Assembly (NCBI GenBank): GCA_964553615.1
Contig: CAZKMA010000001.1
Span: 14,209 to 78,208 of the forward strand
Source of the DNA: an uncultured Spirochaetales bacterium
GTDB lineage: Bacteria; Spirochaetota; Spirochaetia; DSM-27196; DATKUC01
Direction: 5' to 3'
DNA: 64,000 nt
Shown here piece by piece: positions 3 through 53,085 of the stretch. Position 1 is the stretch's first letter, and each line of letters begins with the position of its first letter. The notes beneath the pieces are model-generated. The model saw only the letters and a list, made by a program, of their open reading frames with translations, was not told the DNA's origin and made no database searches. Both the position numbers and the translations under genes were made by a program.

Positions 3-560
3 ATCCCGCTTCCGGGTGAGCACAATGTTTTGAACGCGCTCGGTGCAATTTCAGTGGCGCTCGAGCTCGGCGTGCCGGAAGAAGTCATTCAGCACGGGCT
101 TCAGGGCTTGACCCCGCAGTTCGGGCGGAGCGAAGTCATACGCGGGCCGGTAACGCTGATTCAGGACTGTTATAACGCAAACCCGGATTCTGTCTCGCAA
201 AGCATATCCGCGATTGAACGGATGGAATGGCGGGGGCGGAAAATCCTGGTGCTCGGAGCCATGATGGAGCTCGGTGAGCAGAGCGAGACGCTGCATCGGG
301 AAGTTGGCCGCGACGCGGCGAAGGCCCGACCGCATGCGATCTTTCTGGTGGGCCCCGAGATGGAGGTGGCAGCGGGTGCTGTAAAGGATGCCGGGTTCGG
401 CGGAGATCTTTTCTTCGCAAAGACAACGGATGAACTTGCCGACGCACTGCGGACATATGTGCAGACGGGCGACCTTGTGCTCCTGAAGGGGTCCCGCAGC
501 CTCGGTCTCGAGACACTGACGCCGGTCATTCGCGGAGAACGGAGTAGTAACCGTGGCTGA
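3..560 (+). CDS. murF: UDP-N-acetylmuramoyl-tripeptide--D-alanyl-D-alanine ligase MurF, C-terminal part (5' end lies outside the window)
   Basis: Frame is open from the window edge (IPLPGEHNVLNALGA...). Mur-ligase C-terminal pattern present (DCYNANPDS, ILVLGAMMELG). ftsW follows in dcw order. Confidence 0.85.
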   Translation: MPLPGEHNVLNALGAISVALELGVPEEVIQHGLQGLTPQFGRSEVIRGPVTLIQDCYNANPDSVSQSISAIERMEWRGRKILVLGAMMELGEQSETLHREVGRDAAKARPHAIFLVGPEMEVAAGAVKDAGFGGDLFFAKTTDELADALRTYVQTGDLVLLKGSRSLGLETLTPVIRGERSSNRG

Positions 561-3796: not shown

Positions 3797-3837
3797 AGAT
3801 TTAGATGCTCGCGTAGGGTGCTCAAAGGGGAGGGGAT

Positions 3838-5091: not shown

Positions 5092-5095
5092 GCGT

Positions 5096-5989
5096 ATGGC
5101 GAATCAGGATGTCCTTCTGCGATTTCAGAACTACCTGATAGTAGAGCTTCGATTGGCGCGTCGAACCGTGGAAACATACCTTCGGGAATGTTCATTCTTT
5201 CTGGACTATCTCGATGCGAAAGGAATGGATCCGGCCGCGGTGGACAGCACCGGCGTCATTGAATATCTGATACGCCGGCAGACCGGAAAACAGGGGCTCG
5301 AACAGCGCACCATCGCCAAAGTAGTCTCGAGTTTGCGTTCTTTCTTTCAATTCCTGGTGGTTATCAAACGGCGGAACAACAACCCGGCGCTGCTTGTTGA
5401 AATGCCGAAGATGGAACATCGAGTTCCCGGCGTTTTGCGCGTAGACGAGGTTGAGATGCTTCTGGAAACAATTGAAACCGACACGCCGAACGGGCTTCGG
5501 GATCGTGCGCTGTTTGAGCTCATCTATTCCTGTGGGCTGCGCATCTCCGAAGCTGTCGAACTGAGCGTGCGCAATCTGTTCCTGGATGAGGGTCTCATTC
5601 GAGTGCGCGGAAAGGGAGATAAGGAGAGACTGGTCCCGGTCGGCGGTGAAGCAATTACGTGGCTGAACCGCTATCTTGAGTTCGGCCGTCCGGAATTGAC
5701 GCGTTCGAACCATCGTACGGAAAAGCTCTTCCTCAACCATCTTGGAAACGGGCTGTCTCGAAAAGGCATGTGGAAGCGATTTCGCGAAATTACGGGAAGA
5801 AGCGGTATCGAGGCAAAGGTTCATACGCTTCGTCACTCTTTCGCGACACACCTTCTGGAGGGCGGAGCGGATCTGCGTGCGGTTCAGGAACTACTGGGAC
5901 ACTCGGATATCAGTACAACCCAGATCTACACGCATATCGATAAAGATGATCTTCAGACCTACCATCGGGATTATCATCCCCGCGGATGA
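5096..5989 (+). CDS. xerD: Tyrosine recombinase XerD
   Basis: Phage-integrase SAM-like N domain plus catalytic region ([20 protein letters not shown]; [39 protein letters not shown]). The ATG at 5096 lies 5 nt after the ftsZ stop. The longer track ORF from 4937 overlaps ftsZ and was rejected. Confidence 0.88.
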
Positions 5990-10005: not shown

Positions 10006-10968
10006 ATGAGCCGGGTAGACGCCACCCTGTACCTTCAATATCTCACAAGCGTTCGCAACCTGACCCCTGCGACAGTGAAGGCGTATCGTGGCGACATCGG
10101 GGCATTTCTTCGCTGGCTCGAAACCGAGGGACTGACCGAAGACGCGGCGGATCTGGAAACGGTGCGTAGCTATATCGGTCATCTTTCCCGTCAGCACGCG
10201 GCCACATCTTCTATCAACCGTGTACTCTCGGCGTTGAAGGGGTACTTTCGGTTCAAGATCAGGCAGGGCGTTGCGGAGACTTCCCCGCTGGATGGTGTCC
10301 GAGGATTGAAGAAATCCGGTTCGCTTCCGGAGTTCCTTTTTGAAGAGGAAATGGACCGGATTCTTTCGGTGGAAGGGAACGATTTCACGAGTCTTCGAGA
10401 TCGCGCCATTTTTGAGGTGCTCTATTCGACAGGTTCCCGCGTCGGTGAGCTCGTTCAGATGAACGTCTCTGACATCGATATGAAACGGGGACGCGTCATC
10501 GTTCACGGGAAAGGCCGAAAAGACCGGATGGTGTTTCTCGGCAGTCGAGCAATTGCCGCATTGCACGACTACCTCGCTATTCGGCGCGAACGGGTGCGAA
10601 CTGCGAGCGCTGAACAGCTGCTCCCGGAAACCGCATTGTTTCTGAATCATCACTGTGGACGACTCTCGCAGCGCGGCGTCTCCGGAATAATCGAACGCCG
10701 GGTTCTCGAGACCGGACTGCTGAAGAACACGTCTCCTCATACGTTTCGGCATAGTTTTGCCACACACGTTCTCGATCACGGAGCAGATATTCGGGTTGTT
10801 CAGGAGCTTCTCGGACATGCGAGCCTCTCTACGACTCAAGTATACACGCACCTTGGCCTGGGCAGGCTCAAGGAGATTTACGCTCGGGCCCATCCGCACG
10901 GAGGAACGCGGCCCCGGACTGCCGTGATTCCCGGATGCGCGGCAGAGACAAAAAAAAAGGAAAGGTAA
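10006..10968 (+). CDS. xerC: Tyrosine recombinase XerC (CodV-like)
   Basis: LRDRAIFEVLYSTGSRVGEL; HTFRHSFATHVLDHGADIRVVQELLGHASLSTTQVYTHL. Sits directly upstream of hslVU, like B. subtilis codV. Confidence 0.88.
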   Translation: MSRVDATLYLQYLTSVRNLTPATVKAYRGDIGAFLRWLETEGLTEDAADLETVRSYIGHLSRQHAATSSINRVLSALKGYFRFKIRQGVAETSPLDGVRGLKKSGSLPEFLFEEEMDRILSVEGNDFTSLRDRAIFEVLYSTGSRVGELVQMNVSDIDMKRGRVIVHGKGRKDRMVFLGSRAIAALHDYLAIRRERVRTASAEQLLPETALFLNHHCGRLSQRGVSGIIERRVLETGLLKNTSPHTFRHSFATHVLDHGADIRVVQELLGHASLSTTQVYTHLGLGRLKEIYARAHPHGGTRPRTAVIPGCAAETKKKER

Positions 10969-19484: not shown

Positions 19485-19966
19485 AGCGTTTCCAGTTCCG
19501 TCTTGACAGACTTTTGAAGGTCCGCGAGTACCATGAACGGGAGTGGGAAATCCGAATGGGCGATGCCACGCGTGCATGTGTCCGGATTGAGAATGAGCTC
19601 GAATCCCTTGCGGTGGAACGGACGGGCACCCTCGAACAGAGTGCATCGAGCAGGGAAGAGGTCGATCCGACGCAGGCGTCCGTCGTCGATATAGACGACC
19701 GTTTGACGCGGCAGAGATATCTCGAATTGATCGATCATAGGGTAGCCGACTTAAATGCAACACTATCGGAACGGGAGCTTGAGCGGGAACAGGTGCGGGA
19801 AAAACTTTCTGAGGCTTCCCGTCTGAAGAAGGTGCTCGATAAGCTGAAAGAGCGGAAGCAACAGGAATACCACCATTCCGCGGGAAGGCAGTCCGGGATC
19901 CTCCTTGACGAAATTGCCGGGAACTCGGTAGTGCGGAATCGGCAGAAAGGAGAAGATCGTGTCTGA
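19481..19966 (+). CDS. fliJ: Flagellar export protein FliJ
   Basis: 161 aa coiled-coil protein (MKRFQFRLDRLLKVRE...). Canonical position after fliI, with ATGA overlap. Confidence 0.65.
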   Translation: MKRFQFRLDRLLKVREYHEREWEIRMGDATRACVRIENELESLAVERTGTLEQSASSREEVDPTQASVVDIDDRLTRQRYLELIDHRVADLNATLSERELEREQVREKLSEASRLKKVLDKLKERKQQEYHHSAGRQSGILLDEIAGNSVVRNRQKGEDRV

Positions 19967-20594
19967 CTACAGGCGGGTTGGTTCTTTCCCGCGCATTTTT
20001 GTTCTCATACTGCTTGTCCTCGTGCTCCTGTTTGGAGGGCTCCTCTGGTTCGACTATCTGGGAATTATTGACGTAAAATCGACGCTTCAACCGGTCCTCT
20101 CGCCGGTCCTCTCGCTTGTGGGGATAAAACAGCAGACGGCTCCTCCGCCAAGTGACAGTCCACTTCTGCTTGACTCAGCTCGATTGCAGAAGGCTCAGGA
20201 ATCGCTTCTGATTCGTGAACAGGACCTGCAGAAGCAGGAACAGCTGCTGAAAGAGGAATCGACGAAGCTGGACACGAAGGCAGCGGAAATCAAGGACCGG
20301 GAAACGAAACTTGCAGATCAGGAAAAATCGTTCAATGAAAAGCTGAAACAATACGACAATAGAAGAGCGAACCTGATTACGAACTCGGAGTACTTGACGA
20401 ATATGCCGCCCGACCAGGCGGTTGCCATTATGGCCAAGTACGACGATCAGCTTCTGATCGATACCCTGCGGGTAACGGATGAGCTGGCAAAACAGTCAGG
20501 GAAGGCTTCGCTTGTGCCATACTGGCTGTCGAAACTGCCGCCTGCGAGGGTTGCGGAAATACAGAACAAGATGGCCATCAAACCCAGTCAATAG
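19959..20594 (+). CDS. flbB: Spirochaete flagellar protein FlbB (MotE/MgtE-N-like domain)
   Basis: N-terminal TM, coiled coil, and C-terminal MgtE-intracellular-like segment (PPDQAVAIMAKYDDQLLIDTL...LSKLPPARVAEI). Occupies the flbB slot of the Borrelia operon order. Confidence 0.6.
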   Translation: MSDYRRVGSFPRIFVLILLVLVLLFGGLLWFDYLGIIDVKSTLQPVLSPVLSLVGIKQQTAPPPSDSPLLLDSARLQKAQESLLIREQDLQKQEQLLKEESTKLDTKAAEIKDRETKLADQEKSFNEKLKQYDNRRANLITNSEYLTNMPPDQAVAIMAKYDDQLLIDTLRVTDELAKQSGKASLVPYWLSKLPPARVAEIQNKMAIKPSQ

Positions 20595-37066: not shown

Positions 37067-37840
37067 TTGACGGGCATAGATATTTGGCCTAAGCTGTACG
37101 TGGGAATAGTAAACTGGGGTATTATGGAAGCGAATTGGAGAGTAAGCGCCGTTTTCGCGGGAGCGGCCTTCATCCTGTCCATATTGATTGGGGCGATAGC
37201 CGGCGTCGGCTTTGGCCTGGTACTCCTGCGCGCGATAGTCGGTGCCGTAGCCTTCGGAATTGTCGGTGCCGTCGTTTCCCTCATCATTGCCAGATACCTG
37301 CCGGAGCTCGGGAGTCTGCTCGGCAGCACACCGGGCCAATCCACCGAAAACAAAGATGAAATCGGTAAGACGGTCAATATTGTTCTTCCGGAAGAAAGCA
37401 ATGACTTGAACTATCGCCCATCGTCCATGGAAGACGGTATCGGCGAGTATGATTCCGACGACGGAGAAGAGCGCAGTCTCGGAGGAGATGCGCTCGTCGA
37501 AGAGGTTGAAGAGCTTGCATCCGGAGATGAAGGAAGCGAAGACAACGAACTCACGGAAGCCGACGAGGTTTCCGAACGCCGCCGTTTCGAATCCGCCGGT
37601 GCGGAAGAAATAGTGAGCGATCGGGAGACTGTAGAGCTGCTCGAGTCGGGAGATGAAAGTTTGCCGGATATTGCCGGATTGTCCGGGTCCTTTACCGAAG
37701 GACCGGAATCGGCAGTGCCGGCGCGGGATGGCTTCGGCGCGGGACCGACGCGCGGGAATAGCTCGTCTGGTATCGACCCGGGAGACCCGGAAACCATTGC
37801 ACGAGCATTGCGGACGGTATTGAAACGGGACGAGTCGTAG
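37067..37840 (+). CDS. Hypothetical membrane protein: two N-terminal TMs plus a long acidic, probably disordered tail
   Basis: Gly/Ala-rich TM pair (AVFAGAAFILSILIGAIAGVGFGLVLL; AIVGAVAFGIVGAVVSLIIARYL). About 170 aa of D/E/S-rich sequence follows. Start is ambiguous (TTG 37067 or ATG 37124). Lies between flhG and fliA. Confidence 0.55.
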   Translation: MTGIDIWPKLYVGIVNWGIMEANWRVSAVFAGAAFILSILIGAIAGVGFGLVLLRAIVGAVAFGIVGAVVSLIIARYLPELGSLLGSTPGQSTENKDEIGKTVNIVLPEESNDLNYRPSSMEDGIGEYDSDDGEERSLGGDALVEEVEELASGDEGSEDNELTEADEVSERRRFESAGAEEIVSDRETVELLESGDESLPDIAGLSGSFTEGPESAVPARDGFGAGPTRGNSSSGIDPGDPETIARALRTVLKRDES

Positions 37841-37861: not shown

Positions 37862-38650
37862 ATGGGCGACAACGTGCTGGCGGAAATGACTGAGGAGCAA
37901 CTCTGGCGAAAATACCGCAAGACGCGTAATCCGGAAATCCGTGATGCTCTCGTGAAACAGTATGCTCCGCTGGTGAAGTATGTGGCGGGGAAGGTCGCCA
38001 TTGGGATGCCGCACAATGTCGAGTTCGATGATCTGGTGGGATACGGAGTATTCGGGCTTTTTGATGCGATAGAGAAGTTCGACCCGGAGAAGCACGTCAA
38101 GTTCAAGACGTACGCGGTTACCCGAATACGCGGTGCGATATTCGATGAGTTGCGGTCAATAGACTGGGTGCCGCGCTCGATTCGGCAGAAAAGCAGGGAA
38201 ATTGAGGAAACCGTTCGCCGACTCGAGGCAAGCCTTGGACGTTCTGCAACGGACCGGGAAATTGCCCGGGCGCTGAACATGACCGTACGCGAGTTCGAGA
38301 AACTCATGCTGAAGATCAGCGGAACGTCCATCCTTTCCCTCAATGATGTCTGGTACACAGGCGACGACAACGACAAAGTCTCAATCGCAGACAGCATTGA
38401 ATCACCGCAGAGCCTGAATCCCGACACCATTGTCGAAAAAGATGAGATCCGGCAGGTCATTATTCGATCGATCAATGAGCTTCCGGAAAAGGAAAAGAAG
38501 GTTCTCATTCTTTACTATTACGAGGACCTTACGCTGAAGGAAATCGGCCAGGTGCTCGAAGTCACGGAGTCGCGCATATCTCAACTGCATACAAAGGCGA
38601 TCATGCGTCTTCGGGCAAAACTTACAAACATCCGTAAGGGCATTATGTAG
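37862..38650 (+). CDS. fliA: Flagellar RNA polymerase sigma factor FliA (sigma-28 / SigD / WhiG family)
   Basis: Region 2 ([46 protein letters not shown]). Region 4 HTH ([29 protein letters not shown]). Confidence 0.94.
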
Positions 38651-41561: not shown

Positions 41562-43253
41562 GTGAAGGCAATCATCGGCATCGACCTTGGCACAACGAAC
41601 TCGGCAATTGCGTTCATGGACGGAGAAGAACCACGTGTCATCCCGAACGATCGTGGCAACCGGATAACGCCTTCGGTTGTTGCCATCAGCGAGTCCGGAG
41701 AGATTCTGGTAGGAGAATCTGCGAAGAATCAGGCAATTGTCAACGCACGTCATACAATATCTGCGGTCAAGCGCACCATGGGCAGTGCAACACGGTTCGA
41801 TATTCTGGGCAGATCATATTCACCCGAGGAGATAAGTTCGTTCATACTTCGAAAATTGAAACAGGACGCGGAGACGTATCTGGGTACGCGGGTTACCGAC
41901 GCCGTCATAACCGTTCCTGCCCATTTTTCCGAGATCCAGCGGAGAGCTACGCAGGAGGCGGGACGACTTGCAGGCCTTCGCGTCCAACGCATCTTGAACG
42001 AGCCAACGGCCGCTGCACTTGCCTATGCCTACAAGACGCCTGGTGACAGGAATATTCTGGTCTATGATCTTGGTGGAGGAACTTTCGACGTAACCTGTCT
42101 GCAAAAGAGTGGGAGCGTATTTTCCGTTCTCGCTACAGAGGGAGACAATCACCTCGGAGGCATAGACTTCGATGCCGCGCTGCGCGAACGAGTACTGGCT
42201 GAGTTTGAGGGAAACTCAGGAGTGAAAATCCGCGAGGAGCCGGTTCTCCTGCAGCAGCTTTCGGAATTGGTGGAACGCGCAAAGATCGAACTATCAACAC
42301 GCGAGTCGGCGCACATCGTAATGCCGTTTCTTGGCGGCGGAACGAATGGACGACCGGTACATCTGAGTTCGGCTATCAGTCGCTCGCTGTTCAATCAACT
42401 CATTGATGAGTCGGTGCAGCAGACGATCAGGTTGACAAAGACTGCCGTTCGCACCGCAGGATTCGGGCTTCGAGGAATAGACAGTCTGGTTCTGTCCGGA
42501 GGATCGAGCCGTATTCCGCTCGTTCACACGTATCTGAAACGCGCACTCAATCTCGATCGTGTAGCGCTCGTAAACCCCGATGAGATTGTTGCTATTGGTG
42601 CCGCAGTTCAGGCTTCGCTTCTGGGACAGAACGGCAAGACCGACGTCAATGACGTAACCGCATACAATCTCGGGGTGGAAATCGAAGGAGATCAATTCAT
42701 CACGGTTCTGTCCCGGAACACCGCAATCCCAGTCGAAATAGAGAAGACCTTCACCACCGTAACCGATCGTCAGGTATCGGTAGAAATTCACGTGTTGCAG
42801 GGCGATTCACCAACCGCATCACGAAATGTTTCTCTCGGACGTTTTCTCCTATCGGGAATTCGCGTGGGCGCACGCGGAGAGCCCCGGGTGAGTATTCGGT
42901 TCAGTGTAGATTCAGATGGTCTTGTGTGGGTGAGCGCCCGTGACGTTGAGACGGGGGCCGAACAGAAGATTACCGTGATTCCGGACGTAACCGGGGACCG
43001 GTCGCAGAAAGAAGCGGAGTTCGACGTCGCCGCCCGAGTGAGTGCTCTTGTGGATCGCGTCACATTGCTGTACGAGCAGGAACAGGGCAGGCTCGAAGCG
43101 TCGTTCAGCACGGAAATTCAGGATCTCGTTCAAACCGCCCGGGCAGCAATCGAAGCGAATGAGCTCCGTACCCTTCACGAGTGTCATCTCGCTCTCGAAA
43201 CAATAATCGGAGAGTTGCACATTGAACTCGGATCATCGGAGGTGTCTCAGTGA
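41562..43253 (+). CDS. Non-canonical Hsp70-family ATPase (short-lid, HscC/DnaK-1-like)
   Basis: IGIDLGTTNSAIAF, YDLGGGTFDVT and VLSGGSSRIPLV ATPase motifs. Interdomain linker DVNDVTAYNLGVEI. Beta-sandwich SBD present. Only 563 aa, with a truncated helical lid and no acidic tail. Confidence 0.88.
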   Translation: MKAIIGIDLGTTNSAIAFMDGEEPRVIPNDRGNRITPSVVAISESGEILVGESAKNQAIVNARHTISAVKRTMGSATRFDILGRSYSPEEISSFILRKLKQDAETYLGTRVTDAVITVPAHFSEIQRRATQEAGRLAGLRVQRILNEPTAAALAYAYKTPGDRNILVYDLGGGTFDVTCLQKSGSVFSVLATEGDNHLGGIDFDAALRERVLAEFEGNSGVKIREEPVLLQQLSELVERAKIELSTRESAHIVMPFLGGGTNGRPVHLSSAISRSLFNQLIDESVQQTIRLTKTAVRTAGFGLRGIDSLVLSGGSSRIPLVHTYLKRALNLDRVALVNPDEIVAIGAAVQASLLGQNGKTDVNDVTAYNLGVEIEGDQFITVLSRNTAIPVEIEKTFTTVTDRQVSVEIHVLQGDSPTASRNVSLGRFLLSGIRVGARGEPRVSIRFSVDSDGLVWVSARDVETGAEQKITVIPDVTGDRSQKEAEFDVAARVSALVDRVTLLYEQEQGRLEASFSTEIQDLVQTARAAIEANELRTLHECHLALETIIGELHIELGSSEVSQ

Positions 43254-43840
43254 CACTTCGGCAGATGTATACTACTCTTGGCTTGAGTGAAGGTGCCAAC
43301 ATATCCGAGGTGAAGAGAGCGTATCGCGATCTGGCAAAACGGTTGCATCCTGACGTGAGCGGATGGGACGGAACGCGCGAGGAGTTCGAACGGGTCAGTG
43401 TTGCGTATTGTGAGCTCTTGGAGCGGCTCTCGCGGGATATCGTACGGAACCGTTCCATGAACCTTGCCGATATCGGACGGCAGCTCGAGTTCGGGTCCTC
43501 CGAAACAATTCGTCTTGGTGCTGCCCGAATGCTTGGCCGATGCGGAAGGAAGGCGGCGTATCCGTATCTCCGAAAGGCATTGTACGATGAAAGCGAAGAT
43601 GTGGTGATTGCCGTTGTCCGCGCAATTGGTGCCTTGCGGATTGCTCAAGCGTCCGGTGAGCTTGCAGCGTTGTTTCTGCGGACTTCGCTTCGAGTGAAAG
43701 AGGAAATTATTGAGGTCGCCGAGACGATGGGTGACAAGCCTCAATTCCTGTCCCTGGCATTGACTGGAATGTCCGACGGCAATCGGACCATTCGCCGCAG
43801 ATGTGTTCGTCTCTATTCCAGACAGAAGAGGGCCGTATGA
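43250..43840 (+). CDS. J-domain protein fused to HEAT/PBS-lyase-like repeats
   Basis: J domain with intact HPD (MYTTLGLSEGANISEVKRAYRDLAKRLHPDVSG). No G/F or zinc-finger region. C-terminal HEAT-like repeats (IRLGAARMLGRCG..AYPYLRKALYDESEDVVIAVVRAIGAL). GTGA overlap with the Hsp70 gene. Confidence 0.8.
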   Translation: MTLRQMYTTLGLSEGANISEVKRAYRDLAKRLHPDVSGWDGTREEFERVSVAYCELLERLSRDIVRNRSMNLADIGRQLEFGSSETIRLGAARMLGRCGRKAAYPYLRKALYDESEDVVIAVVRAIGALRIAQASGELAALFLRTSLRVKEEIIEVAETMGDKPQFLSLALTGMSDGNRTIRRRCVRLYSRQKRAV

Positions 43841-45930
43841 ATGCGAAGCTAGAATCGAGGTTCCTGCGAGACGGATCCGGGATGATCGAGACCGTTGACT
43901 ATTCGGTGAACCAGCTCGAGGAACGTGGATTTGACAATGCACTCATCGAACAGGCGTTCCGGGCGGTTCATTCGCTTAAGTCCGAGAGTGCATTTCTCGG
44001 GTACAGTGATCTCGCTGACAACGCCGGACTTCTCGAGGAGCTTCTTGACCGCTGGAAGAAACGGAAAGCGGCACCACCCGATGCGGATGCGAAGCGGATC
44101 CTCGCAATACTGCAGACAATCAAAGGCCTGTTCCGCTCCATTGCGACGCATTCGGTAGAGAGCGGGGACGATAATCCATCGGGAAAATCGGGCAATTCCT
44201 CCGCCGCGCGTCCGGTCGCACCAAAAACGTCGGGCGATTCACCCGGGCGGCGTGTTCCCGCCGGCCGAGCTGCGGCCCACACGCAGAAATCTTCCGCCAT
44301 TCCCCGAGAAAAGGCGCCGAGAGCCGAAATGGACCCGGAGTTCGCAATACACCTGAATCCGTTCCAGAGACAGTTGCTTCGGGAGGCCCGTGGACGAATG
44401 GAACAGCTTTACCGGCTGGAATGCGAGGTGGATCCGTCAGAGCCTATGACCTATGCACGGCTGTATCTTGTCATCAGCAATCTCGAGCAGATCGTGCATG
44501 TCGTAAAGATGTACCCGAGCCTCGACGCAATACGGCAGGGTAAGAGTGCATTCCTGCAGGTCCTGCTGACAACGACACTTCCCGAAGAGAAGATCACGAA
44601 TGCCGTGAATGTTGATCAGATATCTCATGTGCAAGTCTCTCCGCTCGAATATGAGCCGATTCTCCGAAACTCAGCCGATGAGAGCGTTTCCGACCGTGCC
44701 GGGGCTCCCGGGGAGCGGTTGTTTTCGGTCAGCATGCCCGGACGTAAGTATGAAGAGTTGTGTTTGAATGCCGATGAAATCTACTCAAGACTGGGACAGG
44801 AGTGGACTGAACTCGAAAAGGCGCCAATTGAAAGCTCGATAAAGGCCCGAATCCAGTGGAATCTGCTGCTGGTGAATCGATTGGCGGCGTGGATGAGGAG
44901 CACTATTTCCAGCTTTTCCACTGCGCCGCTCACCGAAGTCTTTCAGGGGCTATCTTCTTTTGTCGAGGAATTGGGTCGGCAGCTCGGAAAGCAGGTTGTC
45001 CTGCGCGTACAGGGTGAACACGCAAGAGTATACCTGCCGGTATCCGACACGATAACCGATGTGCTGCTCCACCTTCTGCGAAACGCGATCGATCATGGTA
45101 TTGAAACGCCGGAGGTGCGCAGGCAGCGGCAGAAGCCTGCGCAAGGTACTATTCGGATATCGGTAACAAGCGGACCGGAAAAGCTGACAATACGAGTTGA
45201 GGACGATGGAAACGGAATACCGGAAGATTTGATTGCGGAAATGCAGCGGGGTTCAACGCAGGACAGTATTGCATCGATCGATGCCGAATCCTCCGGCCTG
45301 CGAGACATGCATCCCGACCAGAAAGCGGTGCGCGAACAGCGAGACCTTCTATCCATAATTTCGAGGGCTGGATTTACAACCCGATCGGAACCAACTGAAG
45401 TCTCAGGACGTGGGGTTGGTCTTGACGTAGTAAGCTACTCTGTCAGGAAGCTGCTTTGCGGTCGCATTGAGCTGCAGAACCGCCCGGGGAAGGGATGCGT
45501 GTTTTCGCTCGTACTGCCTGCCTCCACGAACCTCATTACCGTCCTCATTCTTCAGGCGCGAGGTGAGTATCTTGCTCTTCCGCGGGTGTTCATCTCCGAC
45601 ACCTTCGAACTTGATCGTCGATTTGTCTTCAATGACGAAAAAGACTCTACCTACTATCGCTATGGCGGAGAAAACGTACGATTGTATACGGTGTATGAAC
45701 ATTTCCCCGAAGCTCTATCTTTCGATCGAAAGAGAATGGGTGTTATTATCGAAATAGCCGGTGAACGCGGCGTAATTGTCTCCGATAGATTCGTATCTGA
45801 AGAGACTGTTGTCCACGATCGTTCCAGACGGAACGTAGTCTTTTCTCAGATACTCAACAAGGATGTACGCTTGTTCCTGCCGTCTCAGCTCCTCTCTGCG
45901 CTCAGTTTTCGGCGAGGAGAGTCACATTGA
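43837..45930 (+). CDS. cheA: CheA-family histidine kinase (Hpt, unassigned middle region, kinase core, CheW-like domain)
   Basis: Hpt motif FRAVHSLKSESAFLG (His45 from ATG 43837). N box HLLRNAIDHGIE, G1 DDGNGI, F GFTT, G2 SGRGVGLDVV. C-terminal CheW-like domain. ATGA overlap with the J-domain gene. Confidence 0.8.
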   Translation: MNAKLESRFLRDGSGMIETVDYSVNQLEERGFDNALIEQAFRAVHSLKSESAFLGYSDLADNAGLLEELLDRWKKRKAAPPDADAKRILAILQTIKGLFRSIATHSVESGDDNPSGKSGNSSAARPVAPKTSGDSPGRRVPAGRAAAHTQKSSAIPREKAPRAEMDPEFAIHLNPFQRQLLREARGRMEQLYRLECEVDPSEPMTYARLYLVISNLEQIVHVVKMYPSLDAIRQGKSAFLQVLLTTTLPEEKITNAVNVDQISHVQVSPLEYEPILRNSADESVSDRAGAPGERLFSVSMPGRKYEELCLNADEIYSRLGQEWTELEKAPIESSIKARIQWNLLLVNRLAAWMRSTISSFSTAPLTEVFQGLSSFVEELGRQLGKQVVLRVQGEHARVYLPVSDTITDVLLHLLRNAIDHGIETPEVRRQRQKPAQGTIRISVTSGPEKLTIRVEDDGNGIPEDLIAEMQRGSTQDSIASIDAESSGLRDMHPDQKAVREQRDLLSIISRAGFTTRSEPTEVSGRGVGLDVVSYSVRKLLCGRIELQNRPGKGCVFSLVLPASTNLITVLILQARGEYLALPRVFISDTFELDRRFVFNDEKDSTYYRYGGENVRLYTVYEHFPEALSFDRKRMGVIIEIAGERGVIVSDRFVSEETVVHDRSRRNVVFSQILNKDVRLFLPSQLLSALSFRRGESH

Positions 45931-47802: not shown

Positions 47803-47843
47803 AAAAAAAAAACGGTATGCCTGGACGTCTTAGCATACCGTTT
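47803..47843 (-). terminator. Rho-independent terminator downstream of the Maf-like gene
   Basis: On the minus strand: perfect 11-bp stem AAACGGTATGC / GCATACCGTTT (47833-47843 pairs with 47810-47820), a 12-nt loop, then a T-run (A10 on the plus strand at 47803-47812). Confidence 0.8.
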
Positions 47844-47895: not shown

Positions 47896-49755
47896 TTAGG
47901 CAGAGGGAGAATGGTTTAGCCAGGAAAGGCCGTTTTCGAGGCATTTTCGATGAAAGCGCGAAGATTCGAGGAGTCCCTCGTAGATTGACCGGCTGTTCTG
48001 CAATACCTTCTCCGCGGTAACCAATTCGGGGTTCTGGTTATTCAGCTCCCGGACGTTTCTCTGCATGAGAAATCCTACGATGTCGCGGTTCGGATTTGCA
48101 GAGATCTCGCTGTCCAGTTGGTTCAGAAGTTCGAGGTTCGGAACGATGTTCTCCGACTGGGAGAGAGTGTGTTCTGCTTCTGTGACAATTGCCGTACCGC
48201 GCACCGCCAGTGCTTCAATTTCGAGTAGTTCGGTCCTGAGTGTATTGACGGTATCGATGAGGTTCTTGGTACTCGTCACGGGTGGTGACGCGTTCTCGTG
48301 AAGCTTGCCGATTTCCTCGAGTTTCGAACGCGCTGTTCCGGGCAGGTCCGGAAGACTGAGGACTTCCTCGATGTTGGCGTACGATACGCCCTGGAGCTGT
48401 ACCGCATGGGGTGAAAGAGAGCGAGTGTCACACTCGGGAAACCGTTTGGCCTGTCCCTCGAACCAGGTCCGGTAAATGAGCATCCGCTTGTCGGACAGGA
48501 CCGTGGTTCCCGAGTTGTCCGGGACCGGGAAGAGGCCTGCTTCATGGAGATAACGGAATGAATGATGTTCTCCGGGTGCGAGCCGGGTTGCAATTGTCTG
48601 GATTCGTTCTTCGAAAAAACTGCCCCGGAAATGCGTCTGGCGCCCGGGAAAGCCAAGGTCGACTCCGCTCGTATAGATGGGCGTGCATCCAAGGATCCGG
48701 AGAAAATCCCACGCGCTGGTTGACACCGATCCTCCGGCGCCCAGTTTCCCCATGGGGCCTGTCCGGGCTTCGATGTACTGTCCCAGGGGGAAGAGCGAGC
48801 TGCAGAAATGTATTGGTCCGGAGAGGAGTCTGAAGACTCGTGGATGGGTCGATGATTCGGAGATGAGGGGGGCTTTTGCCCCTGCAGCACGATCCAGGTG
48901 TCGGGTGTTCCAGTACTGAGGATCGACAACAACGACGAAATCCGGTTCCACACCTGCGCTGCGGCAGGCGGCAAGGCTGGTGTCCACCGTGACAACTATG
49001 CAGGAGCGTGCAATTTCCCGAAGATGCGGCAGGACGAGATCGAGGCTCGGGCCTCCTCCGAGTAGTATGCCAGGTAGTGCGGGAAAGAGGCCTTCGAGAT
49101 CGGCGAGGCGCCGGGACCGGGTGAATACTGGAAGATTGCGCGTGAGATTCCGTACCCAGAGCTCACCGAATCGAATGAGCGTGTTTTGATTCACCCGCGT
49201 GCGAGACAGGTAGGCCGCGGCGCGGCTCTCGACCTTCTGGTAATACTCTCGGTGCTGGTCGTATTGCGGCCTGAACCGAATAGTCTGGAAGTCGGTGGAT
49301 TCTGTGGCATTCAGAATGTCCATTATCTGGTCGGCGGCATCGGTGCCGAACAGATAATGGACTCTCTCACGAGCGAACAACTCGCGAAAGTCGCGCGCTT
49401 TCAGCACTGCGGCGAAGAGCGGAATATCCGGTTCGACCACCACGACATGTGCAGATGGATGGGTTTCGACGAGGGTTTCAGTGATGTAGCCGAGTCCAAA
49501 ACCTTCGACGATGTAGCAGCCCGTCGGAACTCCGGAGTCCGCGACAATGCGTTCGGCCTCCCGGCGCGGAGCGTGGCTGCTGTGAAGGCTGATTTCCCCG
49601 TAACGGGCGGTGACTTCACCGCTGCGTGCGATCATTGTATGCAGCTGATCTGAGGCGCAGGTTGATCGGATGAGTGCGGCGAGGTCCGGATACGCCTTCG
49701 AGAGTTCGGAAAGGTTTCTTGACCAGATGGATGTCTCGTCAAAACGGTTCTCCAC
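47896..49755 (-). CDS. Motility-associated factor (Maf)-type glycosyltransferase family protein, DUF115 / MptE-like domain
   Basis: DUF115 core (PGILLGGGPSLDLVLPHLREIARSCIVVTVDTSLAACRSAGVEPDFVVVVDPQYW). GTG 49755 is preferred (SD GGAG, 1-nt overlap with the PBP stop). The alternative ATG 49830 would overlap the PBP gene by 76 nt. Confidence 0.75.
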   Translation of the reverse strand: MENRFDETSIWSRNLSELSKAYPDLAALIRSTCASDQLHTMIARSGEVTARYGEISLHSSHAPRREAERIVADSGVPTGCYIVEGFGLGYITETLVETHPSAHVVVVEPDIPLFAAVLKARDFRELFARERVHYLFGTDAADQIMDILNATESTDFQTIRFRPQYDQHREYYQKVESRAAAYLSRTRVNQNTLIRFGELWVRNLTRNLPVFTRSRRLADLEGLFPALPGILLGGGPSLDLVLPHLREIARSCIVVTVDTSLAACRSAGVEPDFVVVVDPQYWNTRHLDRAAGAKAPLISESSTHPRVFRLLSGPIHFCSSLFPLGQYIEARTGPMGKLGAGGSVSTSAWDFLRILGCTPIYTSGVDLGFPGRQTHFRGSFFEERIQTIATRLAPGEHHSFRYLHEAGLFPVPDNSGTTVLSDKRMLIYRTWFEGQAKRFPECDTRSLSPHAVQLQGVSYANIEEVLSLPDLPGTARSKLEEIGKLHENASPPVTSTKNLIDTVNTLRTELLEIEALAVRGTAIVTEAEHTLSQSENIVPNLELLNQLDSEISANPNRDIVGFLMQRNVRELNNQNPELVTAEKVLQNSRSIYEGLLESSRFHRKCLENGLSWLNHSPSA

Positions 49756-51614
49756 TACTGAAGCTCCAACTGTAGCGTCATGCCGGGCGCAATCCTGGTC
49801 CCGGGCGGAGGCGACTGTTTCGTCACCCAACCGTCCCCGGTTATGGTTACTTTCAGGTCTTTGCGGTCGAACAACGGCAGGAGTGCTCGCTTCGGGAGGC
49901 CGGTGAAGTCGGGAATTGTATCGGTAAATGCCGGAAGCTGAGGGCGAATAACGGTGATTCTGTTGCTGCTGCTTGCAACCTTATCCCCCTTGCGCGGTAT
50001 GCCGAAGTAGTTTCCCAGGAAGAGTGCTGCGTCGTGCGCAACGGGGGCTGCAATAATGCCTCCCAGGTAACCATTCTTCCTCGAATCATCGATCACGACA
50101 TACACAATGATCTGTGGATCGTCTGCGGGAAAGATTGCCATGCATGAGCTGAGGAAGGCGGATTTCGAGTAGGTCCCGGTCTTCTTGTCGTAGACTTGTG
50201 CCGTGCCGGTCTTCGCGGCAATGTCGTAGTCCTCAGAATGCGCGCGGATTGCAGTCCCTCCTGCTTGAGTCGCAGTTACCATGAACCCGAGCATCTTGTC
50301 GGCCATTATCGGCGAGATCACCTGCCGCACGGGATCGCGGGCGGACTGTGAAATAACTCTGCCGTCAGCGGAGACTATCTTCTCCACAACATGAGGTTTC
50401 AAGAGCACACCGTGGTTCGCTATTGCTGTGGCTGCAGTAATCATTTGCATTGCGGTGACGGAGATTTCCTGGCCGAATGTGATTGCCGGTTTAGACCGAT
50501 CAGTCCAGAATTCCGGCGTACGGAAGATCCCCTTCTCTTCGCCCGGGAGGTTGACACCGGTTTGCTCTCCAAATCCGAACTGCCGCAGCATGTGGTAGAG
50601 GTTTTCCTTTGATACCGTTTCGGAGGCGTATGATGCTCCTACGTTTGACGAGTACTTGATTATCCCCTGGACGTTGATCCGTCCGTACACGCCCAGATCG
50701 GTGACGGGAGGGTATACCTTGGTGTAGATGCCGTCGGCATTGAAATAGTCCTTCTCGGTAATTCCACCGAGCTGCATGATTGAGGACAACGAAAAAATCT
50801 TGAAGACGGATCCCGGCTCATAGAGGAAATTCACGGGAAAGTTGCGCCGAACGCTCGGCGGAGACTGGTTGAACTTATTCGGATCGAAGTTCGGCATTGC
50901 CGCGTACGCAAGAACGTTGCCGTTTTTTGCGTTCATTGCGAGGATCATGACCGATTTTGCATCATGATAGTCGTATGTCTGTTTTGCAAGTTCCTCCATC
51001 TTGTACTGAGCGTTTGCATCGATGGTGAGGAATATCTGATCGCCATAGACGGTTCCGCTCCGGGTTTCCGTGGGTGCCGGAGAGAGCTGCTTGTCATACT
51101 GGTACTCAATTCCCGCCAGTCCGTGATTGTCTACGCCCACAAATCCGAGCAGGTGCGACGCGAGGGATTTCTCAGGGTAGCTGCGACCGAAATCTGCCCG
51201 CAAACTGACCCCCTGCAACTTGCCTTCCGATTTCAATTCACGGATCCGCTTGCTCTCAGTTGGGGAGATGGTTCGTTTGATGACCGCAAAATCGCTTGTG
51301 CCGTGGATCTTGTCGAGTATCTGCTGAGCAGGGATGTTCAGCACATTGCCCAGGAGATTGGCCGTCTCCTGTGCGTCGGTTACGTTCGGGCCCCACACGG
51401 TAACCGTGTTCAGCTGTGTTTCTATTGCGAGAATCTTCCCGTTGCGGTCCAGGATTGGTCCGCGTTCGACTACGGTTGGTTGGGCGTCTGAGGTTGCGGC
51501 ATTCCTGTTGTTGAAGACCATCACCGAAGCGTACTGTATAATGAGTGCCATCGCGAACAGTCCCGCCGCGACGAACACAACGATGTAGCGAATACGATTG
51601 TTAGTCTTTTCCAT
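49755..51614 (-). CDS. Class B penicillin-binding protein (FtsI/PBP2-type transpeptidase) with C-terminal PASTA domain
   Basis: N-terminal TM anchor. SxxK (GSVFK), SxN (YSSN) and KTG (KTGTA) motifs. C-terminal PASTA-like segment (IPDFTGLPKRALLPLFDRKDLKVTITGDGWVTKQSPPPGTRIAPGMTLQLEL). Confidence 0.9.
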   Translation of the reverse strand: MEKTNNRIRYIVVFVAAGLFAMALIIQYASVMVFNNRNAATSDAQPTVVERGPILDRNGKILAIETQLNTVTVWGPNVTDAQETANLLGNVLNIPAQQILDKIHGTSDFAVIKRTISPTESKRIRELKSEGKLQGVSLRADFGRSYPEKSLASHLLGFVGVDNHGLAGIEYQYDKQLSPAPTETRSGTVYGDQIFLTIDANAQYKMEELAKQTYDYHDAKSVMILAMNAKNGNVLAYAAMPNFDPNKFNQSPPSVRRNFPVNFLYEPGSVFKIFSLSSIMQLGGITEKDYFNADGIYTKVYPPVTDLGVYGRINVQGIIKYSSNVGASYASETVSKENLYHMLRQFGFGEQTGVNLPGEEKGIFRTPEFWTDRSKPAITFGQEISVTAMQMITAATAIANHGVLLKPHVVEKIVSADGRVISQSARDPVRQVISPIMADKMLGFMVTATQAGGTAIRAHSEDYDIAAKTGTAQVYDKKTGTYSKSAFLSSCMAIFPADDPQIIVYVVIDDSRKNGYLGGIIAAPVAHDAALFLGNYFGIPRKGDKVASSSNRITVIRPQLPAFTDTIPDFTGLPKRALLPLFDRKDLKVTITGDGWVTKQSPPPGTRIAPGMTLQLELQ

Positions 51615-51638
51615 GCCGTAAACCGTCTTACCAAATGT

Positions 51639-51665
51639 TCATCGGCAAGAATTAAGTCCACTGTA
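51639..51665 (-). promoter_or_regulatory. Candidate sigma-28-type promoter upstream of the PBP-Maf pair (TACA-N15-GCCGATGA)
   Basis: Minus strand reads TACA gtggacttaattctt GCCGATGA, 24 nt upstream of the PBP ATG. Compare the sigma-28/SigD consensus TAAA-N15-GCCGATAA (3/4 and 7/8 matches, correct spacing). Confidence 0.3.
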
Positions 51666-51681
51666 ATACGCGCGCCCTATC

Positions 51682-53085
51682 TTGTCGATATCTATGGACA
51701 TGGTCACCTATGGCGTAGAACAGCGCGTCTCAAAAAGACGTACCATTTCAGACTCCAGGAGCCGAATGGCTCCTGAAACGTATAATACCGACGCAATGAT
51801 TTCCCGAGGAGAGCAATCTCTCGCCCAACCGGGAGTCGTATCACGATTGATCGAACGACCGCGAAGCCGAAAGATACCGGCGGACCGCGGCACTCGTACA
51901 ACATTGCTGAGGGCCGAGCTGATGAACGACGACGGAATAGATACGGTGGGCGGACCGACACGGATTGCCCCGCCGGATCGGACAGCCATAGGTATGAGTC
52001 TGATGGCTCGTCCGGAGTATCGGCGTCGTTCAACCTCTGCGGCTATCTTTCCGTCGCGCGGCGAGACGGCTGTACGGAATGCGATGGAACGGATGGGCCA
52101 CTGGCTTCCCGTTCTGATTGCCGCGCTCGTTATTTTTGTCGCCGTGCTCGGCAGGTTGAGCATGCTCAAGGATCAGTTCATCTATCCGCCTGCGGCGCAG
52201 CTTCAGATGCCCCCGGACAAGCAGCTCGAGCCGCAGCTCATGGCGACCGCGGTTCCCGGCTACGATGCGGCGACGGGATCAGACGCGTATTCTTCTGCTG
52301 CCAGGGACGAGTCCCAGGCGGTGGCGCCGCCGGAGAACCTGTCGAGGTTCGAATCGCTGAAGTTGACAACCTACACGGTGAAGCCGGGGGACTCGATTTC
52401 GGGTATAGCGAAAAAATTCGGAATTGATGAGGGTACGATCATCAGTTTTAACGACATCAATGATGTTCGCAGAATACCGGTCGGGGCATCCTTTCAAATT
52501 CCAAACAAGAACGGACTCCGTTATACCGTGCACCGGGGGGATTCGCTCAGTTCAATTGCTGGACGATTCAATACTTCCGTCAACAGTCTTCTTGACACCA
52601 ACAACATGAAGTCCACCGTGCTTCATGTGGGGCAGGATTTATTCGTTCCCGGCGCAAAGATGAGCACTTTTCAGCTCCAGCTTGTGCTTGGTGAAGCGTT
52701 TCAGTGGCCTGTGCGCGGTGCGGTAATGACCTCGACATTCGGAATCAGGCGCGATCCGTTTACCGGTGCTCGGGATTTCCATCCCGGAATTGATCTTGCC
52801 CTCTATTTCGGCGCGCCGATCCACGCCGCCGGCAATGGAGTGGTGAAAGATGCCGGGTACAACAATATCTTCGGGTATTACATCATCATCTCCCATCCGA
52901 ACAGCTTTCAGACCCTCTATGGACACCTGTCGAAGCAGTTGGTCCATTCCGGGCAGAGCGTGGTTGCCGGGCAGACCATTGGATTGATGGGAAGCACGGG
53001 GTACAGCACCGGAACGCACCTGCATTTTGGCATATATCACAACTACAAGCCGGTGAATCCGCTGAAGTATCTTCCAAAGCAATAA
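51682..53085 (+). CDS. LysM-domain M23 family metallopeptidase (membrane anchored)
   Basis: TM (WLPVLIAALVIFVAVLG). Two LysM repeats (YTVKPGDSISGIAKKFGI...; YTVHRGDSLSSIAGRFNT...). M23 core (HPGIDLA...GYYIIISHP..FQTLYGHLS...GSTGYSTGTHLHFGI). Start uncertain (TTG 51682, ATG 51694 or ATG 51700). Confidence 0.9.
   Translation: MSISMDMVTYGVEQRVSKRRTISDSRSRMAPETYNTDAMISRGEQSLAQPGVVSRLIERPRSRKIPADRGTRTTLLRAELMNDDGIDTVGGPTRIAPPDRTAIGMSLMARPEYRRRSTSAAIFPSRGETAVRNAMERMGHWLPVLIAALVIFVAVLGRLSMLKDQFIYPPAAQLQMPPDKQLEPQLMATAVPGYDAATGSDAYSSAARDESQAVAPPENLSRFESLKLTTYTVKPGDSISGIAKKFGIDEGTIISFNDINDVRRIPVGASFQIPNKNGLRYTVHRGDSLSSIAGRFNTSVNSLLDTNNMKSTVLHVGQDLFVPGAKMSTFQLQLVLGEAFQWPVRGAVMTSTFGIRRDPFTGARDFHPGIDLALYFGAPIHAAGNGVVKDAGYNNIFGYYIIISHPNSFQTLYGHLSKQLVHSGQSVVAGQTIGLMGSTGYSTGTHLHFGIYHNYKPVNPLKYLPKQ

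What the first reader, a model, noticed from the sequence alone, without database searches (positions are those of the whole stretch)
47896..51665. Class B PBP (PASTA) and Maf/DUF115 glycosyltransferase-type gene share one operon behind a sigma-28-like promoter
Seen:
- The PBP stop (TAG, 49755-49757) shares one base with the preferred GTG start of the Maf-like gene (49755), which is preceded by GGAG.
- A strong terminator follows the pair at 47803-47843.
- 24 nt upstream of the PBP ATG, the - strand reads TACA-N15-GCCGATGA (51665-51639).

Established:
- The sigma-28/SigD consensus is TAAA-N15-GCCGATAA.
- Maf (DUF115) proteins transfer nonulosonic-acid-type glycans onto flagellins.
- Treponemal flagellins are glycosylated.
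- fliA is present in this window.

Inference: a peptidoglycan transpeptidase may be co-expressed with a late flagellar modification enzyme under sigma-28. That would link cell-wall synthesis or remodelling to assembly of the periplasmic flagellar filament. The divergent neighbour is a LysM/M23 peptidase.
Basis: partly seen in the sequence, partly recalled or inferred. Interest (0 to 1): 0.55.

Follow-up and report, generated by a model that had tools for sequence, protein, structure and literature searches.

The report
Conserved spirochete PBP–Maf operon, sigma-70 promoter

Summary
The sequence facts hold. A class B PBP with a PASTA domain (51614-49755, minus strand) ends in a TAG that shares one base with the GTG start of a Maf/DUF115 gene (49755-47896). 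GGAG precedes that start, and a strong terminator follows the pair.

- **Operon: supported.** In 79 of 79 related spirochete loci the PBP gene sits directly upstream of the Maf gene. In 62 of them the stop and start overlap as ATGA or GTGA.
- **Sigma-28 promoter: not supported.** Matches that good are expected about 2.7 times per window by chance, and the site is not conserved even in the closest relative. Its "TACA" is the first four bases of the -10 hexamer of a sigma-70-type promoter (TCGACA-17-TACAGT). That promoter's core, ATCGACA-N14-TATTA, is exact in 56 of 72 sequences and has one mismatch in nine more. It always lies just upstream of the operon.
- **GCCGATGA box.** It is most likely a leftover of a signal peptidase gene (lepB), which in most relatives sits between this promoter and the PBP gene.

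The Maf-like protein has the full-length fold of a solved Maf glycosyltransferase. Why it is so tightly coupled to a PBP is unexplained, and I found no report of it. Interest is moderate.

The parts
51660..51691 (-). Conserved sigma-70-type promoter of the operon. The -35 is TCGACA (51688-51683), the spacer is 17 nt, and the -10 is TACAGT (51665-51660). It belongs to the family motif cATATCGACA-N12-CaTATTAnaaT. The predicted transcription start is near 51653.
   Evidence: The consensus scan finds it. The regex ATCGACA-N14-TATTA is exact in 56 of 72 sequences with enough upstream DNA and has one mismatch in 9 more. It is always on the operon strand, just upstream of the first operon gene, and has no exact match anywhere else in 868 kb. 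The transcription start is inferred, not mapped.
51639..51665 (-). TACA is the first four bases of the sigma-70 -10 hexamer. GCCGATGA reads as ttG CCG ATG Aac (Leu-Pro-Met-Asn), probably a relic of the 3' end of a lost lepB gene.
49755..51614 (-). Class B penicillin-binding protein (transpeptidase), 619 aa. It has an N-terminal membrane anchor and PBP_dimer, Transpeptidase and C-terminal PASTA domains. The SxxK (SVFK), SxN (SSN) and KTG motifs are all present.
   Evidence: Pfam. The best NCBIfam resemblance is SpoVD, at 354 bits, below the model's cut-off. The motifs were read from the translation.
49764..49767 (-). GGAG ribosome-binding site for the Maf gene. It lies inside the last PBP codons, within the conserved CTGGAGCT that encodes Leu-Glu-Leu.
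47896..49755 (-). Maf-family (DUF115/MptE-like) putative glycosyltransferase, 619 aa. Its GTG start overlaps the PBP stop codon by one base.
   Evidence: Pfam. The identical 619-aa protein was called independently in a JGI record (P0001). The AlphaFold model (mean pLDDT 86) matches the solved Maf structure 5MU5 over its full length, E = 7e-19, TM 0.61.
47803..47843 (-). Intrinsic terminator that ends the operon.
51700..53085 (+). Divergent LysM + M23 peptidase, membrane-anchored, with the HxxxD and HxH motifs present. The likely start is ATG 51700 or 51694. The TTG at 51682 that starts the longest ORF lies directly beside (1 nt from) the -35 hexamer of the PBP promoter.
   Evidence: Pfam. The gene is conserved in this divergent position in 64 loci. 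The start was inferred from alignment with L001-L003.

Best explanation
This is a deeply conserved spirochete envelope-biogenesis operon. The ancestral order is promoter-lepB-pbp-maf, lying divergent from a LysM/M23 peptidase gene and next to secA. In the window's lineage lepB has decayed, leaving pbp-maf behind a leader of about 40 nt.

**How it works.** Transcription starts at a sigma-70-type promoter (TCGACA-17-TACAGT) whose sequence is almost invariant across the family. It ends at the hairpin-U10 terminator after maf. Ribosomes finishing the PBP gene reinitiate on maf through the overlapping stop and start, using the GGAG inside the last PBP codons. The two proteins are therefore made from one mRNA in a fixed ratio.

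**What the products do.** The PBP is an intact SpoVD/FtsI-like class B transpeptidase. The Maf protein is a true Maf-family member by sequence and by fold. It most likely O-glycosylates FlaB flagellins in the cytoplasm with a nonulosonic acid, as shown biochemically for Treponema denticola flagellins.

**What the pairing means.** My reading is that the flagellin-modifying enzyme is expressed constitutively with growth-linked envelope genes, not as a late sigma-28 gene.

**Shown:** gene identities, the overlap, conservation of the pairing and of the promoter, and the terminator.
**Inferred:** the transcription start, the flagellin substrate, and the reason for the pairing.
For: - Domains.
- Adjacency in 79 of 79 loci.
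- ATGA or GTGA overlap in 62 of 79 loci, with conserved CTGGAGCT.
- Gene order SecA> M23< [LepB>] PBP> Maf> across 80 loci. Independent gene calls and Pfam hits confirm it in Spirochaeta isovalerica and in a 3.86-Mb genome.
- The promoter motif is exact in 56 of 72 sequences and has one mismatch in 9 more. It occurs once per locus, always upstream of the first operon gene. It is kept in L039, where the M23 gene is absent.
- The tool scan calls TCGACA-17-TACAGT.
- Terminator.
- Full-length structural match to Maf 5MU5.
- A lepB relic lies in the leaders of relatives. The box-E pattern hits 23 times in 1.7 M six-frame residues. Twenty-two are in lepB genes and the other is in the L003 leader.
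- T. denticola FlaB glycosylation: PMC13439194.
- Maf proteins are listed as present in T. denticola: bioRxiv 10.1101/2023.12.03.569772.
Against: - No transcription start has been mapped.
- No flagellin or nonulosonic-acid biosynthesis gene lies in the window or beside the pair in the related loci. The usual genomic context of Maf genes is therefore missing.
- The score against the NCBIfam PseD model is far below its cut-off (27 against 670).
- Gene pairs kept translationally coupled over this much divergence (Maf identity down to about 35%) often encode proteins that work together. A purely regulatory reading of the pairing may be too modest.
- The -35 region is more conserved than an ordinary promoter needs, which hints at an unidentified regulator.
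Confidence: 0.7

Rival explanations
1. One reading: in this lineage TACA-N15-GCCGATGA is a working sigma-28 (FliA) promoter, so pbp-maf is a late flagellar transcription unit. It might act in addition to the sigma-70 promoter.
For: - The site matches the consensus at 10 of 12 positions with correct spacing, and lies in an intergenic region 24 nt upstream of the ATG.
- fliA is in the window.
- Spirochete sigma-28 promoters follow the general consensus. T. denticola PflaB2 has -35 TTAA and -10 CCGATAA (PMC9481697).
- Using the chance rate, I estimate about 0.05-0.1 such sites expected across all promoter-proximal DNA of the window.
Against: - Window-wide, the match is at chance level.
- The closest relative, L001, has GTCGATTC with 16-nt spacing, which is 4 mismatches.
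- L002 and L003 keep the box but 36-43 nt from TACA, with no TAAA-like -35.
- In L020 the box ends 10 nt before the ATG and lies upstream of the GGGAGGAG ribosome-binding site.
- Across 66 orthologous upstream regions there is no enrichment: 3 sites with two or fewer mismatches, none at the same position.
- TACA is explained as part of the conserved -10, and the box as lepB relic codons.
Confidence: 0.08
2. The Maf-like protein is functionally tied to the PBP or to the cell envelope, and is not only, or not at all, a flagellin glycosyltransferase. It might glycosylate an envelope or divisome protein. Alternatively it might act as a nucleotide-sugar-sensing cytoplasmic regulator of wall synthesis or hydrolysis.
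For: - Translational coupling to a PBP is kept in nearly all of about 80 diverse loci.
- The neighbourhood is envelope biogenesis: secA, M23/LysM, lepB.
- Nonulosonic-acid and flagellin genes are absent nearby.
- There is a weak fold resemblance of the nucleotide-binding domain to SteA, a cytoplasmic regulator of the peptidoglycan hydrolase RipA (PMC12977500).
Against: - The full-length fold and the N-terminal motif are those of flagellar Maf proteins (E = 7e-19 against 5MU5). The SteA hits are marginal (E about 4e-3, TM 0.16-0.28).
- The PBP has only about 10 poorly conserved cytoplasmic residues for a cytoplasmic partner to contact.
- In about 21 loci the pair lies convergent to the tail of the large flagellar operon, so a loose flagellar neighbourhood does exist.
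Confidence: 0.15
3. The conserved ATATCGACA...CATATTA element is mainly an operator, or a shared bidirectional promoter for the divergent M23 peptidase gene, and not simply the pbp-maf promoter.
For: - Nine bases around the -35 are nearly invariant, more than sigma-70 recognition alone needs.
- The M23 start codon lies only 10-25 nt from the motif, so the M23 mRNA must begin within or beyond it.
- The reverse complement of CATATTA (TAATATG) contains a -10-like TAATAT.
Against: - In the PBP direction the element fits TTGACA-17-TATAAT at 9 of 12 positions with fixed spacing. No comparable fit exists in the M23 direction.
- The motif is retained in L039, where the M23 gene is missing.
- In many loci it sits 6-20 nt from the first operon gene.
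Confidence: 0.2

Closest known systems
[quoted passage not shown]
   Same: - The three-part architecture is shared: a Maf N-terminal domain, an MptE-like nucleotide-sugar domain and a helical C-terminal domain.
- The full-length fold matches 5MU5.
- The N-terminus is of the Maf type ("...NL..L....P.L").
   Different: - It is not encoded with flagellin or with pseudaminic/legionaminic acid biosynthesis genes.
- No GlfM-like gene follows it.
- Instead it is translationally coupled to a class B PBP in a secA/M23/lepB neighbourhood.
- It scores far below the NCBIfam PseD cut-off.
- Its substrate is untested.
Treponema denticola flagellin O-glycosylation (FlaB1-3 carry a pseudaminic-acid-type glycan needed for filament assembly)
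   Same: Same phylum, and periplasmic flagella. It gives a plausible substrate and role for a spirochete Maf (PMC13439194; 10.1101/2023.12.03.569772).
   Different: I could not check whether the T. denticola Maf is the ortholog, or whether it sits next to a PBP. The primary paper (Kurniyati 2017) is not held in the library.
Sigma-28 (FliA) promoters, for example T. denticola PflaB2 (-35 TTAA, -10 CCGATAA; PMC9481697)
   Same: The window site resembles the consensus at 10 of 12 positions with 15-nt spacing.
   Different: - It is not conserved.
- It overlaps a conserved sigma-70 -10.
- The -10-like box is explained by lepB relic codons.
- The match is at chance level.
SpoVD/PBP2B/FtsI-type class B PBPs with PASTA domains; B. 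burgdorferi BB_0136 is listed as FtsI/PBP3 in PMC11185795
   Same: The domain order and the catalytic motifs are shared. The best NCBIfam resemblance is SpoVD.
   Different: - It is below every equivalog cut-off.
- It has a single PASTA domain.
- It lies outside the dcw cluster: ftsW, ftsA and ftsZ are at 553-5091 in this window.
- Whether it acts in the divisome or the elongasome was not determined.
SteA/SteB of Corynebacterineae (a cytoplasmic protein with a nucleotide-binding pocket that controls the peptidoglycan hydrolase RipA)
   Same: It is a precedent for a cytoplasmic protein with a sialyltransferase/TPPK-like nucleotide pocket acting in cell-wall control. There are weak Foldseek hits (PMC12977500).
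   Different: The resemblance is marginal and limited to the nucleotide-binding core. There is no SteB-like partner here.

Membership tests
Maf flagellin glycosyltransferase family | Central MptE-like/DUF115 domain | tested here: met
   PF01973, E = 2e-30, 106 bits against a cut-off of 34.6, residues 203-370.
Maf flagellin glycosyltransferase family | Maf N-terminal domain | tested here: met
   PF20157, 27.7 bits against a cut-off of 23.5. Only part of the profile is covered.
Maf flagellin glycosyltransferase family | Full-length fold like a solved Maf | tested here: met
   The AF2 model (pLDDT 86) against 5MU5: Foldseek E = 6.8e-19, TM 0.61/0.60. phmmer E = 4.6e-5.
Maf flagellin glycosyltransferase family | Encoded with flagellin and/or nonulosonic-acid biosynthesis genes | tested here: not met
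   No such gene occurs in the 64-kb window, nor among the recurrent neighbours in 80 loci. The nearest flagellar genes are the convergent tail of the fla operon.
Maf flagellin glycosyltransferase family | Transfers a nonulosonic acid to flagellin Ser/Thr | not testable with these tools
   This needs a mutant and flagellin mass spectrometry.
Sigma-28 (FliA)-dependent promoter | Match to TAAA-N15-GCCGATAA better than chance | tested here: inconclusive
   The site matches at 10 of 12 positions. The window holds 5 such sites against 2.74 expected, and 17 of 100 shuffles reach 5. The intergenic position raises the odds somewhat.
Sigma-28 (FliA)-dependent promoter | Both elements conserved at orthologous positions | tested here: not met
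   L001 has 4 mismatches. L002 and L003 lack a -35. There is no enrichment across 66 loci.
Sigma-28 (FliA)-dependent promoter | Transcription depends on FliA | not testable with these tools
   This needs a fliA mutant or in vitro transcription.
Sigma-70-type promoter | Two hexamers with 16-18 nt spacing | tested here: met
   TCGACA-17-TACAGT, 9 of 12, with A2 and T6 of the -10 present.
Sigma-70-type promoter | Conserved upstream of orthologous operons | tested here: met
   The motif is exact in 56 and has one mismatch in 9 of 72 sequences. Spacing is fixed, orientation is the same, and there is no other exact copy in 868 kb.
Sigma-70-type promoter | Mapped transcription start | not testable with these tools
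   This needs 5'-RACE or dRNA-seq.
Class B PBP (SpoVD/FtsI-like, with PASTA) | PBP_dimer + Transpeptidase + PASTA domains and the SxxK, SxN and KTG motifs | tested here: met
   Pfam. SVFK, SSN and KTG are in the translation.
Class B PBP (SpoVD/FtsI-like, with PASTA) | Reaches an NCBIfam equivalog cut-off (SpoVD, MrdA or FtsI) | tested here: not met
   SpoVD 354 against 688; pbp2_mrdA 231 against 455; FtsI 172 against 737.
Translationally coupled operon | Overlapping stop and start with an upstream ribosome-binding site, conserved in relatives | tested here: met
   TAGTG in the window. ATGA or GTGA in 62 of 79 loci, and gaps of 21 nt or less in most of the rest.

The most novel reading that the evidence does not exclude
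The spirochete Maf-family protein that is always translationally coupled to a class B PBP works with the cell-wall machinery. It might glycosylate an envelope or divisome component. It might instead couple the nucleotide-sugar state to peptidoglycan synthesis near the periplasmic flagella. Either way it would be more than a flagellin glycosyltransferase. The hyper-conserved ATATCGACA promoter or operator would then mark a dedicated regulatory unit for this module.
Probability: 0.15. Interest if true: 0.7.

Novelty: new variant of a known kind. Interest (0 to 1): 0.4.

Why it matters
Maf enzymes are known from flagellin glycosylation islands. Here a Maf gene is hard-wired by overlapping stop and start codons to a peptidoglycan transpeptidase gene. 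The pair sits in a secA, M23 peptidase and signal peptidase neighbourhood behind one of the most conserved promoters I saw in these genomes, across many spirochete lineages. Two readings follow:

- If the pairing is only regulatory, spirochetes make their flagellin-modifying enzyme constitutively with growth genes. That fits their weak flagellar transcription hierarchy.
- If the pairing is functional, it would be a concrete link between wall synthesis and the periplasmic flagellum, and a target for genetics in tractable spirochetes.

The case is also a caution about motif matches. A good-looking sigma-28 site turned out to be half a sigma-70 -10 and half a fossil of a lost gene.

Tried and rejected
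- **Recalled T. pallidum synteny.** I remembered TP0705/TP0706 as the orthologous pair. This was wrong: TP0705 is a PonA-like PBP with more than 700 residues. I dropped it.
- **Positive control for sigma-28 promoters in this clade.** No flagellin gene is in the window. A scan of the 80 loci for sites with one or no mismatch gave 8 scattered hits, mostly inside genes. None was usable as a control.
- **5'-leader hairpin as an explanation for the GCCGATGA box.** The window leader folds so as to pair the box region with the start-codon region (z = -2.5). The leaders of L001-L003 do not fold better than shuffles. This is not a conserved structure.
- **HMM of LepB C-termini against translated leaders.** The top three hits were the right loci, aligned to the right profile positions. 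Scores were only 1-2 bits, so the test was not significant on its own. The explicit box-E pattern test was decisive for L003.
- **blastn-short of the leaders.** It showed only L002-L003 homology.
- **Literature.** Kurniyati 2017 is not held. Searches for DUF115 or Maf in spirochetes and for BB0135/BB0136 found no description of a PBP-Maf operon.
- **Named genera.** I could not examine Treponema, Borrelia, Leptospira or Brachyspira genomes. The single genome-collection scan returned only the 80 best of 521 loci, and all 80 were MAGs. The one cultured species seen, Spirochaeta isovalerica, came from a separate contig look-up.

Full report
**1. Observation**

On the minus strand, an ORF from ATG 51614 to TAG 49757-49755 encodes a 619-aa class B PBP. 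It has PBP_dimer, Transpeptidase (6e-64) and PASTA domains, and the SVFK, SSN and KTG motifs are present.

The G of its TAG is the first base of GTG 49755-49753. This GTG starts a 619-aa ORF with an MptE-like/DUF115 domain (2e-30) and a Maf N-terminal domain. GGAG lies 8 nt upstream of the GTG.

Downstream there is a 12-bp hairpin followed by U10, at 47843-47803 (-16.3 kcal/mol, z = -3.2). TACA-N15-GCCGATGA lies at 51665-51639, 24 nt before the ATG.

The window also carries:
- the large spirochete flagellar operon, from fliF at 14280 through flhA, flhF and flhG;
- fliA at 37862-38650;
- then FapA, DUF6115, Hsp70, DnaJ and a CheA-like gene;
- ftsW, ftsA and ftsZ;
- hslVU.

The divergent neighbour of the PBP gene is a LysM + M23 peptidase, and secA lies beyond it.

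**2. The operon is real and old**

The Maf-like protein has hundreds of full-length relatives in spirochetes. A scan of species-representative genomes found 521 related loci, of which the 80 best were kept.

- In every one of the 79 loci with DNA upstream of the Maf gene, the PBP gene lies directly upstream on the same strand. This holds down to about 35% Maf identity.
- In 62 of 79 the Maf start overlaps the PBP stop as ATGA or GTGA. Most of the rest have gaps of a few bases.
- The last PBP codons are the conserved CTGGAGCT (Leu-Glu-Leu), which also supplies the GGAG ribosome-binding site.

The window's TAGTG is a variant of this junction, so GTG 49755 is the true start. An independent JGI gene call gives the same 619-aa protein (P0001). 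The in-frame TTG at 49830 (-73) recurs in relatives as ATG or TTG. It falls in conserved PASTA-domain codons, so it is a by-product.

The wider order is SecA> M23< [LepB>] PBP> Maf>. Independent gene calls with Pfam hits confirm this order in Spirochaeta isovalerica and in a 3.86-Mb genome. In about 21 loci, as in the window, the pair converges on the tail of the flagellar operon (FliA, FapA, DUF6115, Hsp70, DnaJ, CheA-like).

**3. The promoter**

*Chance level.* Sites with two or fewer mismatches to TAAA-N15-GCCGATAA are expected 2.7 times per window by chance, and 5 are present.

*No conservation.* In 66 orthologous upstream regions there is no conserved sigma-28-like site.

*A different conserved element.* The regions upstream of the operon's first gene (the M23-PBP spacer or, where lepB is present, upstream of lepB) instead share one element, cATATCGACA-N12-CaTATTAnaaT.
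- Its core, ATCGACA-N14-TATTA, is found exactly once in 56 sequences.
- It always lies on the operon strand, just upstream of the first operon gene (lepB where present, otherwise the PBP gene).
- It has no exact match anywhere else in 868 kb on either strand.
- Of the 72 sequences with enough upstream DNA, 56 match exactly and 9 have one mismatch.
- It reads as a sigma-70-type promoter, TCGACA-17 nt-TA(C/T/A)(A/T)(A/G)T.

The scanning tool finds the window copy as TCGACA-17-TACAGT at 51688-51660. The motif persists in L039, where the M23 gene is absent, so it belongs to the operon.

**4. The GCCGATGA box**

A CCGAT-type box follows the promoter only in the nearest relatives (L002, L003 and L020; it is degenerate in L001). 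Its distance from TACA varies from 15 to 43 nt, and there is no TAAA-like -35. In L020 it ends 10 nt before the ATG and lies upstream of the GGGAGGAG ribosome-binding site. That position does not fit a -10 element.

In about 45 loci a signal peptidase I gene (Peptidase_S26) sits between the promoter and the PBP gene. Translating the leaders of the loci that lack lepB gives fragments of the LepB C-terminus:

| Locus | Translated leader fragment |
|---|---|
| L003 | DWRNTGISPITPIVG |
| L002 | NAGFSPMTPFVG |
| L020 | SYGFLPMTGRR*, ending in an ATGA overlap with the PBP start |
| L001 | FGFRSIQMI*HRVM |
| window | FLPMNIW* |

The box-E pattern D.R..G..P[IVLM]..[IVL].G occurs 23 times in 1.7 million six-frame residues of the loci. 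Twenty-two of these are in lepB genes, and the remaining one is in the L003 leader.

The box therefore corresponds to the codons (Leu/Ser)-Pro-(Met/Ile) of a decayed lepB; in the window it reads ttG CCG ATG Aac. This is well supported for L003, L002 and L020. For the window it rests on a short stretch and on homology with those loci.

**5. The proteins**

- *Maf.* An AlphaFold model built from an 18-sequence alignment (mean pLDDT 86) matches the solved Maf of Magnetospirillum magneticum (5MU5) over its full length (E = 7e-19, TM 0.61). Sequence search finds the same entry. The protein is a Maf-family member by domains and by fold. It scores far below the NCBIfam PseD cut-off.
- *Missing context.* No flagellin or nonulosonic-acid gene accompanies it.
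- *Likely substrate.* T. denticola FlaB flagellins carry a pseudaminic-acid-type glycan that is needed for assembly (PMC13439194), and Maf proteins are reported there (10.1101/2023.12.03.569772). Flagellin is therefore the most likely substrate, by inference only.
- *A weak lead.* The nucleotide-binding core has weak Foldseek hits to SteA, a cytoplasmic regulator of a peptidoglycan hydrolase (PMC12977500). This is a lead, not evidence.
- *PBP.* It resembles SpoVD, FtsI and PBP2 but stays below every equivalog cut-off. Its role is undetermined.

**6. Verdict**

The operon claim is right and much stronger than proposed. The sigma-28 claim is not supported and has a better explanation.

What remains is a robust gene pairing that I could not find reported in the literature I could search. 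A Maf gene is translationally coupled to a class B PBP behind a nearly invariant sigma-70-type promoter in many spirochetes.

My preferred reading is constitutive, growth-linked expression of a flagellin glycosyltransferase (confidence 0.7). A direct functional tie to the wall machinery is not excluded (about 0.15).

I did not test Treponema, Borrelia, Leptospira or Brachyspira.

Noticed in passing
window 51660-51691 (-); L001-L080 upstream of lepB or the PBP gene: The promoter element cATATCGACA-N12-CaTATTAnaaT is far more conserved than the flanking DNA, and more than sigma-70 recognition alone would need. The M23 start codon lies only 10-25 nt from it, so the M23 mRNA must start within or beyond it. 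It may be a shared bidirectional promoter or an operator for an unknown regulator.
   Followed up: partly
L003:4064-4108; L002:~3975-4010; L020:~4046-4082; window 51629-51650 (-): Non-coding leaders of the PBP gene hold recognisable fragments of the C-terminus of signal peptidase I. This suggests lepB was lost from an ancestral lepB-pbp-maf operon in the window's lineage.
   Followed up: yes
window 51615-51655 (-): The PBP gene has no obvious Shine-Dalgarno sequence. Its leader can fold into a hairpin that pairs UUGCCG with CGGCAUGG across the start codon (-13.4 kcal/mol, z = -2.5). The fold is not supported in L001-L003.
   Followed up: partly
window 41562-45930 (+): The flagellar operon ends with Hsp70, a DnaJ/HEAT protein and a CheA-like protein. 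The CheA-like protein shows Hpt, P2 and HATPase_c domains but no dimerisation or CheW domain at E <= 1e-4. The same trio recurs at the operon tail in several relatives.
   Followed up: no
window 19959-20594 (+) and 37067-37840 (+): Two ORFs inside the flagellar operon, one between fliJ and fliK and one between flhG and fliA. Neither has a Pfam hit; 37067-37840 also has no NCBIfam hit (19959-20594 was not scanned against NCBIfam).
   Followed up: no
L018:9866-9892 (-); L073:6177-6203 (-): One-mismatch sigma-28-like sites (…GCCGATAA) lie inside the DUF6115-like gene near the tail of the flagellar operon in two relatives. They may be internal promoters. The window has no equivalent site.
   Followed up: no
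window 49830 (-); position -73 in relatives: An in-frame TTG or ATG 73 nt upstream of the PBP stop recurs in the Maf reading frame of many loci. It arises from conserved Gly-Trp codons of the PASTA domain and could mislead gene callers into a longer Maf ORF.
   Followed up: yes
window 4937-5989 (+) and 10006-10968 (+): Two XerC/XerD-type recombinase genes flank a TPR protein, dprA and topA, between the ftsAZ genes and hslVU.
   Followed up: no
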